Positions 34 through 5,577 of a stretch of DNA of 5,577 nucleotides are shown here, in pieces. Position 1 is the stretch's first letter, and each line of letters opens with the position of its first letter. Source of the stretch: Escherichia phage G4; sequence record NC_001420.2. One strand, 5' to 3'. The notes beneath the pieces were generated by a model that searched no databases, was not told the DNA's origin, and was given only the letters and a program-made list of their open reading frames with translations. A program made the position numbers and the translations under genes.

Positions 34-58
34 GCCTCCCATCAAACGGAGGCTTTTC

Positions 59-1808: not shown

Positions 1809-1974
1809 CGCCCTTGACGAGGAGAAATACTTAAATATGTTAGGTGCTCTCCTCAAGGACTGGTTCCGGTACGAAGAACATTTCGTGCATGGTAAACAAT
1901 CAATGCTTGACATACTGAAAGAACGTGGCCTATTATCCACATCGTCAACTGACACAAACCACAAAGGAAACTGA
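1720..1974 (+). CDS. C: Protein C (84 aa), involved in the switch to ssDNA synthesis and packaging
   Basis: ATG 1720-1722 overlaps the A stop (ATGA). Product [58 protein letters not shown]...ILKERGLL matches recalled phiX174 C ([42 protein letters not shown]...DWFRYESHFVHG...ILKERGLL). The ORF-track start at 1702 is a GTG extension and not the real start. Confidence 0.9.
1907..1936 (+). promoter_or_regulatory. Candidate sigma70 promoter for the late operon (PD): -35 TTGACA (1907-1912), 18-nt spacer, -10 TATTAT (1931-1936)
   Basis: Perfect consensus -35 and a 5/6 -10 inside the 3' end of gene C, about 40 nt upstream of the D start. This is the same relative position as the phiX174 PD promoter as I recall it. 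Confidence 0.5.
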
Positions 1975-1975
1975 A

Positions 1976-2434
1976 ATGTCTAAATCAAACGAATCTGCTG
2001 TAGCCTTTCAAACTGCTATCGCTTCTATCAAACTTATTCAAGCATCTTCTGTTCTTGACTTGACAGAGGACGATTTTGACTTCTTAACTCGCGACCGTGT
2101 CTGGATTGCTACCGACCGTTCACGCGCTCGCCGTGCTATCGAGGCTTGCGTATATGGAACACTGGACTTTGTCGGGTATCCTCGCTTTCCTGCTCCTGTT
2201 GAGTTTATTTCTGCCGTCATTGCTTATTACGTTCATCCCGTTAACATCCAAACCGCCTGTCTCATCATGGAAGGTGCTGAGTTTACCGAAAACATCGTCA
2301 ATGGTGTTGAACGCCCCGTTAAAGCCTCTGAACTGTTCGCCTTCACTCTTCTTGTTCGCGCCGGAAACAAAGATCTTATCGGTCACGCTGAAACAAACAT
2401 CCGTGAACAGTTACGCGCTCAAGGTGTCATGTAA
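1976..2434 (+). CDS. D: External scaffolding protein D (152 aa)
   Basis: ATG 1976 preceded by SD AAGGA (1964-1968) at 7-nt spacing. Product MSKSNESAVAFQTAIASIKLIQASSVLDLTEDDFDFLT...VWIATDRSRARR...ACVYGTLDFVGYPRFPAPVEFI.AVIAYYVHPVNIQTACLIMEGAEFTENI is near-identical to recalled phiX174 D, with the same 152-aa length. The track start at 1925 is a GTG extension. Confidence 0.95.
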   Translation: MSKSNESAVAFQTAIASIKLIQASSVLDLTEDDFDFLTRDRVWIATDRSRARRAIEACVYGTLDFVGYPRFPAPVEFISAVIAYYVHPVNIQTACLIMEGAEFTENIVNGVERPVKASELFAFTLLVRAGNKDLIGHAETNIREQLRAQGVM

Positions 2435-2444
2435 AGACCTTTGA
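2154..2444 (+). CDS. E: Lysis protein E (96 aa), nested in gene D in the +1 frame; single-gene lysis protein (MraY inhibitor class)
   Basis: ATG 2154 lies inside D in another frame. Product MEHWTLSGILAFLLLLSLFLPSLLITFIPLTSKPPVSSWKVL...LKPLNCS has the N-terminal transmembrane segment with the conserved LAFLLLLSL.LPSLLI.FIP core of recalled phiX174 E (MVRWTLWDTLAFLLLLSLLLPSLLIMFIP...). Stop TGA 2442-2444 lies 10 nt past the D stop. The track start at 2097 is a GTG extension. Confidence 0.85.
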   Translation: MEHWTLSGILAFLLLLSLFLPSLLITFIPLTSKPPVSSWKVLSLPKTSSMVLNAPLKPLNCSPSLFLFAPETKILSVTLKQTSVNSYALKVSCKDL

Positions 2445-2476
2445 TTTTATCGTCTTCACTTTTAAGGAGTTATGTA

Positions 2477-2554
2477 ATGAAAAAATCAATTCGCCGCTCT
2501 GGTGGCAAATCTAAGGGTGCCCGTCTCTGGTATGTAGGCGGAACACAATACTAA
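2477..2554 (+). CDS. J: Small basic DNA-binding/packaging protein J (25 aa)
   Basis: Not in the ORF track (too short). ATG 2477 preceded by SD AAGGAG (2464-2469) at 7-nt spacing. Hand translation gives MKKSIRRSGGKSKGARLWYVGGTQY, stop TAA 2552-2554. The C-terminus ARLWYVGG matches the phiX174 J C-terminus (…GARLWYVGGQQF), and the short 25-aa form is the G4-type J as I recall it. Confidence 0.85.
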   Translation: MKKSIRRSGGKSKGARLWYVGGTQY

Positions 2555-2562
2555 TCTTTTAT

Positions 2563-2587
2563 GTGGGACCGCGGTCCCACTCTATTT
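2563..2587 (+). terminator. Perfect 18-nt palindrome (GTGGGACCGCGGTCCCAC, 2563-2580) followed by a T-rich stretch (CTCTATTT); candidate partial terminator after gene J
   Basis: The palindrome is self-complementary over all 18 nt and would fold on mRNA as a GC-rich hairpin of about 7 bp. It sits in the J-F intergenic space, where phiX174-type phages have a leaky terminator. The downstream U-tract is short and interrupted, so termination would be inefficient. Confidence 0.45.
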
Positions 2588-4019: not shown

Positions 4020-4553
4020 ATGTTCCAGAAATTCATTTCTAAGCACAATGCTCCAATTAACTCTACTCAGCTTGCTGCTACTAAAACCCCAGCTGTAGCG
4101 GCACCTGTTTTATCTGTGCCTAACTTAAGTCGCTCTACTATTCTAATCAATGCAACAACCACAGCCGTTACAACTCATTCAGGCTTGTGCCATGTTGTTC
4201 GCATTGATGAAACAAACCCAACAAATCATCACGCTCTATCTATTGCAGGTTCGTTATCAAACGTCCCTGCTGATATGATTGCTTTTGCCATTCGTTTTGA
4301 GGTCGCTGATGGCGTCGTTCCTACTGCCGTCCCGGCCTTATACGACGTCTATCCAATCGAAACCTTCAATAACGGCAAAGCAATCTCATTTAAAGATGCT
4401 GTTACCATCGACTCACATCCCCGCACCGTCGGTAACGACGTTTATGCGGGAATCATGCTCTGGTCTAACGCTTGGACCGCCTCTACTATCTCTGGCGTCC
4501 TCTCTGTTAATCAGGTAAACCGTGAAGCAACCGTCCTTCAACCTCTGAAATAA
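4020..4553 (+). CDS. G: Major spike protein G (177 aa)
   Basis: Product begins [10 protein letters not shown] and ends ...LSVNQV.....LQPLK, matching the conserved N- and C-termini of recalled phiX174 G (MFQTFISRHN ... LQPLK) with internal motifs (YDVYP, VTID..PRT.GN.VY.G.M.WSN). SD AAGGA (4008-4012) at 7-nt spacing. Confidence 0.93.
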
Positions 4554-4563
4554 GGATTATCCT

Positions 4564-5577
4564 ATGTTTGGCTCTATCGCTGGCGGTATCGCCTCCGCAC
4601 TTGCCGGAGGCCTTATGGGTAAATTATTTGGCGGCGGTCAGTCCGCCGACTCTACCGGAATCCAAGGCAACGTCCTTGCTTCCGACAACAATGTTGTAGG
4701 TGCTAATGATGCTGGTATTAAATCTGCTATTCAGGGCTCTACTGTCCCTAACTCTCAGGAAGCTGCTCCCTCTGCTATCTCTGGCATCCTTGCCGACTCT
4801 GGCAAGCATGCGCTCTCGTCTCTTACCAATGCTGGTGCAAATAAACTCATGGAGGCTGTCGGCCTTTCTAAGTCTGCCTCTGACAAGGGCAAGGACACAA
4901 AAGACTATCTCGCCGCCGCATTCCCCGAGCTCAACCCATGGGAACGTGCTGGTGCTGGCGCTTCTAGTCCAGGCATGCAAGACGCTGGCTTCCAAAATCA
5001 GAAGGAGCTAACCAAGATGCAGCTTGACAACCAAAAGGAAATCGCTAAGATGCAAAACGAAACTCAGAAGGAAATTGCTGGGCTTCAATCTATTACATCA
5101 CGCGAAAATACTAAGGATACTGTCTATGCTCAAAATGAAATGCTCGCGTATAACCAAAAAGAGTCTATGTCACGCGTTGGCGCTATTCTCGAAAACACAA
5201 GCCTCACCAAACAGCAACAAACTTCTGAAATTATGCGGCAAATGCTTACTCAGGCTCAAACCGCAGGTCAATATTTTACAAATGACCAAATCAAGGAGCT
5301 TACGAGAAAAGTTGGTGCTGATATTGATGCTGTTCGCGCTAACACTGCACGCACCCATGTAGAAACCGACCGCTCAAAACAGGAAGTACAAAACTCCCGT
5401 TATGCCTCTTCTCAGGTAGGTAAAACCGCTAAGGACGTGTCCAATGCAATTACTGATACAGCTGGTTCTATTGTTGATTATTTTCGTGGTGCTGATCAAA
5501 AAGTGGCAGACGTTTACAACAACTATTTCAAAGATGGCAAATCGAAAGGAATAGAATCCAATCACCGCTCCAAATAA
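4564..5577 (+). CDS. H: Minor spike / DNA pilot protein H (337 aa)
   Basis: Product [26 protein letters not shown]...[24 protein letters not shown]...[77 protein letters not shown]...[31 protein letters not shown] is highly similar to recalled phiX174 H, with a glycine-rich hydrophobic N-terminus and a central coiled-coil-like region. SD AAGGA (4552-4556) at 7-nt spacing. Stop TAA is the last 3 nt of the window. Confidence 0.95.

What the first reader, a model, noticed from the sequence alone, without database searches (positions are those of the whole stretch)
2154..2444. Lysis gene E embedded out of frame in scaffolding gene D, extending 10 nt past the D stop
E encodes a single-gene lysis protein with an N-terminal transmembrane helix (LAFLLLLSLFLPSLLITFIP, with the conserved proline), the class that inhibits MraY. 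At 96 aa it is longer than the 91 aa of phiX174 E, and the C-terminal half differs. The E C-terminus is dispensable in phiX174, so the divergence is not surprising, but it is where host-range or lysis-timing differences could map.
Basis: partly seen in the sequence, partly recalled or inferred. Interest (0 to 1): 0.35.

Follow-up and report, generated by a model that had tools for sequence, protein, structure and literature searches.

The report
Phage G4 lysis gene E
The finding is the long-known lysis gene E of bacteriophage G4, read in a second frame inside scaffolding gene D, and it is correctly described but ordinary.

Summary
The window is the reference genome of bacteriophage G4: 5577 nt, 99.6% identical to AF454431. 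Positions 2154-2444 are the annotated E (cell lysis) gene, and the 96-aa product is exactly UniProt P03640. E sits in the +1 frame of D, starts 178 nt into D, and its TGA stop ends 10 nt after D's TAA. It has one N-terminal transmembrane helix with the invariant Pro21, and it is 96 aa against 91 aa in phiX174.

It matches Pfam PF04517 (87 bits; cut-off 25). It also matches the two E proteins solved in complex with MraY and SlyD (PDB 8G02, 8G01). The start codon and GAGG ribosome-binding site are conserved in three genera.

The five extra residues have a simple cause. A D-silent change (Val151 GTG to GTC) removes the phiX174-type stop. A 43-nt duplication-derived D-J spacer then supplies the next stop.

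Two caveats apply:
- Only residues 63 to the end are really divergent.
- "C-terminus dispensable" is too simple.

G4-E has already been cloned and tested in slyD knock-outs.

Two side notes:
- Thr26 is unique to this 1978 sequence.
- G4 E natively carries His3 and Phe19, the phiX174 slyD-bypass substitutions.

Verdict: already known, low interest.

The parts
2154..2444 (+). Gene E, lysis protein, 96 aa plus TGA stop
   Evidence: Translation. Annotated at the same coordinates in AF454431, GQ153923 and AY751298. Identical to UniProt P03640. Pfam PF04517 6.7e-25. PHROG 1472 'lysis' 2.3e-41. PDB 8g02_B 2.9e-21.
1976..2434 (+). Gene D, external scaffolding protein (152 aa). It hosts E in its +1 frame.
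   Evidence: Translation. Pfam PF02925 gpD 1.4e-82. Annotation.
2141..2144 (+). GAGG Shine-Dalgarno for E, 9 nt before the ATG
   Evidence: Sequence. GAGG is conserved at the same distance in G4, ID11, NC6, FL68, phiX174, ID21 and phiK. Its function as a ribosome-binding site is inferred.
2178..2240 (+). Coding region for the transmembrane helix (E residues 9-29), including the Pro21 codon CCG at 2214-2216
   Evidence: Hydropathy maximum 2.61 at residues 9-27. Residues 10-18, 20-25 and 27-29 are invariant in 10 E proteins. D silent sites are nearly frozen here, with 1/19 differing from phiX174.
2229..2231 (+). E codon 26, ACG (Thr). Of the 10 E proteins aligned, only the window's has Thr here; the other nine have ATG (Met).
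   Evidence: C2230 against T in G4-Anc, G4_ancestral and ID11, and silent in D. Met26 is present in 9 of 10 aligned E proteins, the window being the exception.
2427..2429 (+). E codon 92, TCA (Ser). It is homologous to the TGA stop of phiX174 E, and its middle base is the wobble base of D Val151.
   Evidence: Codon-by-codon comparison.
2435..2476 (+). D-J intergenic spacer holding the last 10 nt of E, including the stop TGA at 2442-2444. It corresponds to a 43-nt insertion relative to NC6, ID52, phiX174 and FL68.
   Evidence: Alignment A1. A 17-nt direct repeat at 2421-2437 and 2464-2480, 82% identical and spaced 43 nt, flanks it.
1907..1936 (+). Promoter-like site TTGACA-18 nt-TATTAT inside gene C. 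It is homologous to the phiX174 D promoter, which drives the D/E transcript.
   Evidence: Best sigma-70 match in the window, 11 of 12. Its TTGACA aligns with phiX174 nt 319-324, the positions of the published D-promoter mutations (PMC4825663 Table 1). Activity in G4 is inferred.

Best explanation
Positions 2154-2444 are gene E of bacteriophage G4, a single-gene lysis protein translated from the D/E mRNA in the +1 frame of scaffolding gene D.

Shown here:
- The ORF, its frame and its coordinates.
- Its identity with the annotated G4 E protein.
- Its homology to phiX174 E and ID21 E.
- A conserved start codon and ribosome-binding site.
- One N-terminal transmembrane helix with the invariant Pro21.
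- Purifying selection on that helix, visible as frozen D-silent sites.

Inferred from the phiX174 and ID21 homologues, whose complexes with E. coli MraY and SlyD are solved (PDB 8G02, 8G01): the helix inserts into the inner membrane and lies in the groove of MraY next to helix 9, blocking lipid I synthesis. The segment after the membrane (about residues 30-65) is held by the cytoplasmic chaperone SlyD. Growing cells then burst at the septum.

The 96-aa length has a simple origin. A change that is silent in D (Val151 GTG to GTC) turned the phiX174-type TGA at E codon 92 into TCA. E therefore reads five more codons, to a TGA in a 43-nt spacer created by duplication of the D-stop/J-start junction.
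For: - The window is 99.6% identical to G4 AF454431 over all 5577 nt.
- E and D are annotated at identical coordinates in three records.
- The protein is exactly UniProt P03640.
- Pfam PF04517 scores 87.2 bits against a cut-off of 25, and gpD scores 275 bits.
- PHROG 1472 (lysis) matches residues 1-90 of 91 profile positions.
- PDB 8g02_B 'Lysis protein E' gives 2.9e-21 over residues 3-90, and 8g01_B gives 5.3e-19 over residues 1-73.
- ATG and GAGG are conserved in 8 phages of 3 genera. In ID21 and phiK a stop lies 4 codons upstream, so no longer N-terminus is possible there.
- Invariant residues include W4, L10-L18, L20-I25 with P21, and F27-P29.
- D-silent-site divergence from phiX174 is 61% in the D-only part, 26% under E1-35 and 5% under the TM core.
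- Stop-codon and spacer anatomy.
- Literature: E inhibits MraY by occupying its active site in the MraY-E-SlyD complex (PMC12506998; PMC11812184). In the close relative ID52 E, P21A abolishes lysis and mraY overexpression suppresses it (PMC11126076).
Against: No functional test can be run here. Inhibition of MraY by the G4 protein itself rests on homology. The one paper that used a G4-E plasmid does not state the G4 outcome in its text, and its figures are not held.

The window's E has Thr26 at a position that is Met in the other nine of the 10 E proteins aligned. If that residue is real, its effect on activity is unknown.

ORF length by itself is weak evidence (P about 0.02-0.03).
Confidence: 0.94

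Rival explanations
1. The +1-frame ORF is a chance by-product of D's T-rich third codon positions and is not expressed as a functional protein in G4.
For: ORF length is only modestly unusual under synonymous shuffles of D (P about 0.02-0.03). Gene H carries an unannotated 101-codon off-frame ORF of similar size. D-silent sites under E residues 36-92 diverge about as fast as in the D-only part (21/44 against 28/46, p=0.29).
Against: Strong homology to experimentally characterised E proteins. The ATG and Shine-Dalgarno are conserved across three genera. The TM segment is invariant, with D-silent sites nearly frozen there at 1/19.
Confidence: 0.01
2. E starts upstream, at GTG 2097, giving a 115-aa protein instead of starting at ATG 2154.
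For: The frame is open for 22 codons upstream of ATG 2154 in the G4-like phages, FL68 and phiX174. The ORF listing reports the 115-aa GTG-started ORF. Many machine-called phiX174-like proteins in public data start upstream (for example P0047 and P0075).
Against: In ID21 and phiK a stop codon lies 4 codons upstream of the same ATG. GAGG lies 9 nt before ATG 2154 in all eight phages. Family profiles and the solved chains begin at this Met. All curated records annotate 2154.
Confidence: 0.02
3. G4 E lyses cells by oligomerising into a transmembrane tunnel through the envelope (the older 'E tunnel' model of the bacterial-ghost literature), not by enzyme inhibition.
For: Bacterial-ghost papers, including the one that used G4-E and ID52-E, still describe 'transmembrane tunnels' seen by electron microscopy (PMC11126076; PMC8622331 abstract).
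Against: mraY resistance alleles, biochemical inhibition, and the solved MraY-E-SlyD complex for two E homologues that match G4 E at E-values of 1e-19 to 1e-21. mraY overexpression suppresses lysis by the close relative ID52 E. The holes can be a consequence of septal rupture.
Confidence: 0.03

Closest known systems
phiX174 lysis protein E (91 aa; PDB 8G02 chain B, MraY-E-SlyD 'YES' complex)
   Same: Same position and +1 frame inside D, with the same 178-nt offset, GAGG-ATG start and TM helix with Pro21. Identity is 56% over 91 residues without gaps, 71% in residues 1-35.
   Different: phiX174 E stops at codon 92, inside D and 5 nt before D's end. G4 has TCA there and ends 10 nt after D. Residues 63-91 are only 31% identical. 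G4 has His3 and Phe19 where phiX174 has Arg3 and Leu19. The G4 C-terminal part is less basic, with net charge +5 against +9.
E of other Gequatrovirus phages: ID11 and NC13 (96 aa), ID8 (105 aa), NC6 and ID52 (103 aa), FL68 (91 aa)
   Same: Same gene, start and TM helix, with 72-90% identity for the G4 and ID52 groups. ID11 and NC13 share the 96-aa length and the stop in the D-J spacer.
   Different: NC6 and ID52 lack the 43-nt spacer, so their E runs 31 nt into gene J. FL68 E ends inside D as in phiX174. Only G4 proper has Phe19.
E of Alphatrevirus phages ID21 (76 aa; PDB 8G01 chain B) and phiK (75 aa)
   Same: Same nested position and frame. The TM region is 26/29 identical to G4.
   Different: Much shorter, ending 50-53 nt before the end of D. 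This shows that the tail beyond about residue 75 is not needed by the family.
Other single-gene lysis 'protein antibiotics' (Qbeta A2 on MurA; phage M LysM and PP7 Sgl on MurJ)
   Same: Small phage proteins that lyse by blocking a step of lipid II supply. Several are also overprinted on essential genes (bioRxiv 10.1101/2023.10.16.562596; PMC12506998).
   Different: Unrelated sequences and different targets. The resemblance is functional only, with no family relationship.

Membership tests
Microvirus lysis protein E (Pfam PF04517; PHROG 1472) | Sequence match above the curated family threshold | tested here: met
   PF04517 scores 87.2 bits against a cut-off of 25, E=6.7e-25, over residues 35-74. 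PHROG 1472 gives 2.3e-41 over residues 1-90.
Microvirus lysis protein E (Pfam PF04517; PHROG 1472) | Full-length homology to E proteins whose complex with MraY and SlyD is solved | tested here: met
   8g02_B (phiX174 E) gives 2.9e-21 over residues 3-90. 8g01_B (ID21 E) gives 5.3e-19 over residues 1-73.
Microvirus lysis protein E (Pfam PF04517; PHROG 1472) | Single N-terminal transmembrane helix carrying the conserved Pro21 | tested here: met
   Hydropathy maximum 2.61 at residues 9-27. P21 and 20 other positions between residues 10 and 29 are invariant in 10 sequences. P21A abolishes lysis in ID52 E (PMC11126076).
Microvirus lysis protein E (Pfam PF04517; PHROG 1472) | Gene overprinted in the +1 frame of scaffolding gene D, starting about 172-178 nt into D behind a GAGG Shine-Dalgarno | tested here: met
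   The offset is 178 nt in G4, NC6, phiX174 and ID21, 175 in FL68 and 172 in phiK. All are 1 mod 3, and all have GAGG 9 nt upstream.
Microvirus lysis protein E (Pfam PF04517; PHROG 1472) | Gene lies wholly inside D (the phiX174 'internal overlap' layout) | tested here: not met
   G4 E ends 10 nt after D. NC6 and ID52 E end 31 nt after D. This is a layout trait of phiX174, FL68 and the alpha3 group, not a requirement of the family.
Microvirus lysis protein E (Pfam PF04517; PHROG 1472) | Purifying selection on the E reading frame | tested here: met
   D-silent sites differ from phiX174 at 28/46 codons in the D-only part and at 9/34 under E1-35 (p=0.003), with 1/19 under the TM core. No footprint is seen under E36-92 (21/44, p=0.29).
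Type I single-gene lysis protein acting on MraY | Expression alone lyses growing E. coli | not testable with these tools
   An araC-ParaBAD-G4-E plasmid and its lysis curves are reported (PMC11126076, Fig. 8C and 8G and Fig. S3). The text does not spell out the G4 result, and the figures are not held.
Type I single-gene lysis protein acting on MraY | Lysis blocked by mraY resistance alleles or MraY overproduction, with direct inhibition of MraY | not testable with these tools
   Shown for phiX174 E (PMC11812184; PMC12506998). For ID52 E, only suppression of lysis by mraY overexpression is shown (PMC11126076). Not reported for G4 E in the papers held.
Type I single-gene lysis protein acting on MraY | Dependence on the host chaperone SlyD at natural expression levels | not testable with these tools
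   True for phiX174 (PMC3324380). For G4 the question is open. G4 E carries His3 and Phe19, the two phiX174 substitutions that bypass slyD. ID52 E was reported to be slyD-independent when overexpressed.

The most novel reading that the evidence does not exclude
G4 E may be a natural 'Epos' allele. It carries both substitutions (His3 and Phe19, with Ser79 in D) that phiX174 acquires in the laboratory to lyse slyD-deficient hosts. If so, wild G4 would lyse with little or no dependence on SlyD, and SlyD dependence in this family would be a tunable trait reached through changes that are silent or conservative in D. The evidence here neither shows nor excludes this. The phiX174 alleles are thought to act by raising E synthesis, which may depend on nucleotide context and not on the amino acids.
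Probability: 0.3. Interest if true: 0.3.

Novelty: already known. Interest (0 to 1): 0.07.

Why it matters
It matters little as a discovery. The gene, its overlap with D, its length and its likely mechanism have been in the literature and databases since 1978-79. The mechanism of the family was settled structurally in 2023.

The value of the check is mainly hygiene:
- It confirms that the first-stage reader can recover an overprinted gene from raw sequence.
- It corrects two overstatements: which part of E is divergent, and whether the C-terminus is dispensable.
- It flags that the reference G4 sequence carries 20 private differences, one of which (Thr26) alters the functional helix of E. Anyone synthesising 'G4 E' from the RefSeq record should know this.

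Tried and rejected
- Primary papers. I tried to read Orta et al. 2023 (DOI and PMC12747129), Tanaka & Clemons 2012 (PMC3429702) and Bernhardt et al. 2000 (PMC18234). None is held. Residue-level contacts of E with MraY and SlyD, and any published comment on G4 E or Met26, could therefore not be checked. Secondary sources were used instead.
- Wide protein search. It gave 372 hits, but most are unnamed 103-161-aa machine calls of phiX174-like E that start upstream in the open frame or run on at the 3' end (for example P0047 and P0075). They most likely come from phiX174 DNA in sequencing runs. They add no diversity and were not used.
- RNA folding of the E translation start in G4, relatives, phiX174 and phiX174 with the Epos changes. 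The predicted unpaired probability of the Shine-Dalgarno is 0.06 in phiX174, 0.24 with the L19F nucleotide change and about 0.31 in all G4-like phages, whether residue 19 is Leu or Phe. This is suggestive at most, comes from a 120-nt excerpt, and supports no conclusion.
- Minus-strand ORFs under E (88 aa at 2120-2386; 60 aa at 2038-2220). No PHROG match. Microviruses transcribe one strand only (my own knowledge, not tested here). Dismissed.
- Structure prediction. Not run, because two solved homologues match at 1e-19 to 1e-21.

Full report
**What the window is.** The 5577-nt window aligns end to end with Escherichia phage G4 isolate Anc (AF454431) at 99.6% identity. It also aligns with seven other G4 records at 99% or more, and with ID11 and NC13 at about 97%. 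The protein encoded at 2154-2441 is present verbatim in public databases as CAA24017.1 / YP_009497842.1 / UniProt P03640, 'Lysis protein, Escherichia phage G4'. The window is therefore the reference G4 genome.

**The observation.** The stretch from ATG 2154 to TGA 2442-2444 gives 96 residues: MEHWTLSGILAFLLLLSLFLPSLLITFIP.... D runs from 1976 to TAA 2432-2434 and gives 152 residues. E begins 178 nt into D, which puts it in the +1 frame, and its last base lies 10 nt beyond D's last base. GenBank annotates D at 1976..2434 and E ('cell lysis') at 2154..2444 in AF454431, GQ153923 and ID11 AY751298.

**Is it more than chance?** ORF length alone is weak evidence. In 5000 shuffles of D's synonymous codons, a +1-frame ATG-ORF of at least 96 codons appeared in 2.4% of cases, and a stop-free run of at least 118 codons in 3.2%. 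Gene H contains an unannotated 101-codon off-frame ORF. The case rests on three other lines of evidence.
- Homology. Pfam PF04517 'Microvirus lysis protein (E)' scores 87.2 bits against a cut-off of 25. PHROG 1472 (category lysis) gives 2.3e-41 over residues 1-90. PDB chains 8g02_B (phiX174 E) and 8g01_B (ID21 E) give 2.9e-21 and 5.3e-19.
- A conserved start. In G4, ID11, NC6, FL68, phiX174, ID21 and phiK, E starts at an ATG 172-178 nt into D, always in the +1 frame, with GAGG 9 nt upstream. In ID21 and phiK a stop lies only 4 codons upstream, which excludes the longer GTG-2097 reading.
- A selection footprint. E's second codon position is D's third. At codons where D's amino acid is unchanged, G4 and phiX174 differ at D's third position in 28/46 codons of the D-only part. 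Under E residues 1-35 the figure is 9/34 (Fisher p=0.003), and under the TM core (E10-29) it is 1/19. Comparison with ID21 gives the same picture (17/36 against 5/34, p=0.0045). Under E residues 36-92 the rate (21/44) does not differ from the D-only rate.

**Anatomy.**
- The Kyte-Doolittle 19-residue maximum is 2.61 at residues 9-27, against 2.79 for phiX174 E.
- In an alignment of 10 E proteins from three genera, the invariant positions are M1, W4-L6, L10-L18, L20-I25 (including P21), F27-P29, T31, W39, K40, K46, M50, L56, P58 and S62.
- The part after the helix is Ser/Thr/Pro-rich with net charge +5, against +9 in phiX174.
- T makes up 41% of D's third positions in the overlap, and so 41% of E's second positions, against 27% in the whole genome. 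This gives 22 Leu in 96 residues. It is the pattern Fiddes and Godson used in 1979 to argue that E was overprinted on D (PMC8227390).
- The best promoter-like site in the window is TTGACA-18-TATTAT at 1907-1936. Its TTGACA aligns with phiX174 nt 319-324, where the published D-promoter mutations lie (PMC4825663). It is therefore the likely G4 D/E promoter.

**Why 96 residues and not 91.** G4 and phiX174 E align without gaps. At codon 92 phiX174 has TGA and G4 has TCA. ID11 and NC6 have TTA. The middle base is the wobble base of D Val151 (GTG in phiX174, GTC in G4), so the change is silent in D. Reading continues Ser-Cys-Lys-Asp-Leu to the TGA at 2442-2444.

That stop lies in a D-J spacer found in G4 and ID11 but absent from NC6, ID52, phiX174 and FL68, where D's stop overlaps J's start (ATGTAATG). 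The spacer corresponds to a 43-nt insertion. It is flanked by a 17-nt direct repeat, 2421-2437 AAGGTGTCATGTAAAGA and 2464-2480 AAGGAGTTATGTAATGA, 82% identical and spaced 43 nt. The likely origin is a duplication of the D-stop/J-start junction. Where the spacer is absent but the stop is also lost (NC6, ID52), E runs 31 nt into J and reaches 103 aa. E length across the subfamily ranges from 75 to 105 aa.

**Mechanism.** This part is inferred from homologues. phiX174 E inhibits MraY, and the cryo-EM 'YES' complex of MraY, E and SlyD shows E occupying the MraY active-site groove next to helix 9 (PMC12506998; PMC11812184). The lytic determinant is the N-terminal membrane-spanning region (Buckley & Hayashi 1986, cited in PMC8227390; PMC5405515). 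Wild-type phiX174 needs host SlyD, which stabilises E (PMC3324380; PMC4825663). In ID52 E, which is 72% identical to G4 E, P21A abolishes lysis and mraY overexpression suppresses it (PMC11126076). G4 E shares the whole conserved helix, so the same mechanism is by far the most likely, though it has not been shown for the G4 protein in the texts I could read.

- Identity to phiX174 E is 71% for residues 1-35, 63% for 36-62 and 31% for 63-91. The Pfam model covers residues 35-74. The divergent part is therefore the last third, not the C-terminal half.
- 'Dispensable' is too strong. The solved complex orders E residues 1-65. C61S and F66C kill ID52 E, and G4 E has Cys61 and Phe66. The natural 75-76-aa E proteins of phiK and ID21 show that residues beyond about 75 are not needed.
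- The suggested cloning experiment exists. An araC-ParaBAD-G4-E plasmid was tested in slyD and dnaJ knock-outs of E. coli Nissle (PMC11126076, Fig. 8C and 8G). The text says only that lysis 'persisted' for panels A-E, without naming G4.

**Side observations.**
- All 20 resolved differences between the window and G4-Anc are private to the window, since G4_ancestral and ID11 agree with Anc. They include adjacent swaps at 1044/1045 and 4097/4098. This suggests errors in the 1978 sequence or changes in that laboratory stock.
- One of these differences, C2230, turns E codon 26 from ATG (Met) into ACG (Thr). Met is present in the other nine of the 10 E proteins aligned.
- G4 E has His3 and Phe19, and D has Ser79. 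In phiX174, G575A (E R3H) and G624T (E L19F, D A79S) are the 'Epos' mutations that restore lysis on slyD hosts (PMC4825663 Table 1; PMC3324380; codons). Phe19 occurs only in G4 proper, while His3 is common. Whether G4 is therefore less dependent on SlyD is untested.

**Verdict.** The finding is correct and is the textbook gene E of G4. It is already known and of low interest.

Noticed in passing
window 2229-2231 (E codon 26); also nt 87, 432, 761, 775, 1016, 1044-1045, 2706, 2709, 2804, 3418, 3443, 3586, 4097-4098, 4966, 4969, 5214, 5492: All 20 resolved differences between this reference G4 sequence and G4-Anc are private to the window, because G4_ancestral and ID11 agree with Anc. They include adjacent base swaps. 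This suggests 1978 sequencing errors or stock-specific changes. One of them makes E Thr26 where the other nine of the 10 E proteins aligned have Met.
   Followed up: partly
window 2160-2162 (E His3), 2208-2210 (E Phe19 / D Ser79): G4 E natively carries both residues that arise in phiX174 'Epos' mutants (R3H; L19F with D A79S), which lyse slyD-deficient hosts (PMC4825663 Table 1; PMC3324380). Phe19 is seen only in G4 proper, and ID11 has Leu19 with D Ala79. SlyD dependence of G4 is untested here.
   Followed up: partly
window 2421-2480: G4 and ID11 have a 43-nt insertion between D and J that NC6, ID52, phiX174 and FL68 lack. It is flanked by a 17-nt direct repeat (2421-2437 and 2464-2480, 82% identical), as if the D-stop/J-start junction had been duplicated. 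The second copy keeps AAGGAG just upstream of J's ATG.
   Followed up: yes
L004 (NC6) 479-790; L010 (ID52) 2163-2474: In NC6 and ID52 the E gene (103 aa) overlaps both D and the first 31 nt of J, so three genes share that short stretch of DNA.
   Followed up: partly
window 4700-5011 (+), inside gene H: An unannotated off-frame ORF of 103 aa (101 codons from its first ATG) lies in the +1 frame of H. It is as long as E. Its conservation was not examined.
   Followed up: no
window 2563-2580: A perfect GC-rich hairpin, GTGGGACCGCGGTCCCAC, followed by a T-rich tail, lies in the J-F intergenic region. It is terminator-like.
   Followed up: no
window 34-53: A terminator-like hairpin, GCCTCCC...GGAGGC followed by TTTTCATG, lies in the H-A intergenic region. 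Its 3' arm contains the GGAGG just upstream of the annotated gene A start at 59, so the hairpin may also mask A's ribosome-binding site.
   Followed up: no
window 2114-2233 compared with L006 (phiX174) 429-548: In folds of 120-nt excerpts, the E Shine-Dalgarno is predicted to be mostly paired in phiX174 (unpaired probability 0.06). It is more open with the L19F nucleotide change (0.24) and in all G4-like phages (about 0.31). This is a weak lead on how E synthesis is tuned.
   Followed up: partly
protein search hits P0009-P0121: Hundreds of unnamed 103-161-aa 'E-like' proteins in public read assemblies are phiX174-type E sequences called from upstream starts or with altered 3' ends. They probably derive from phiX174 control DNA in sequencing runs.
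   Followed up: partly
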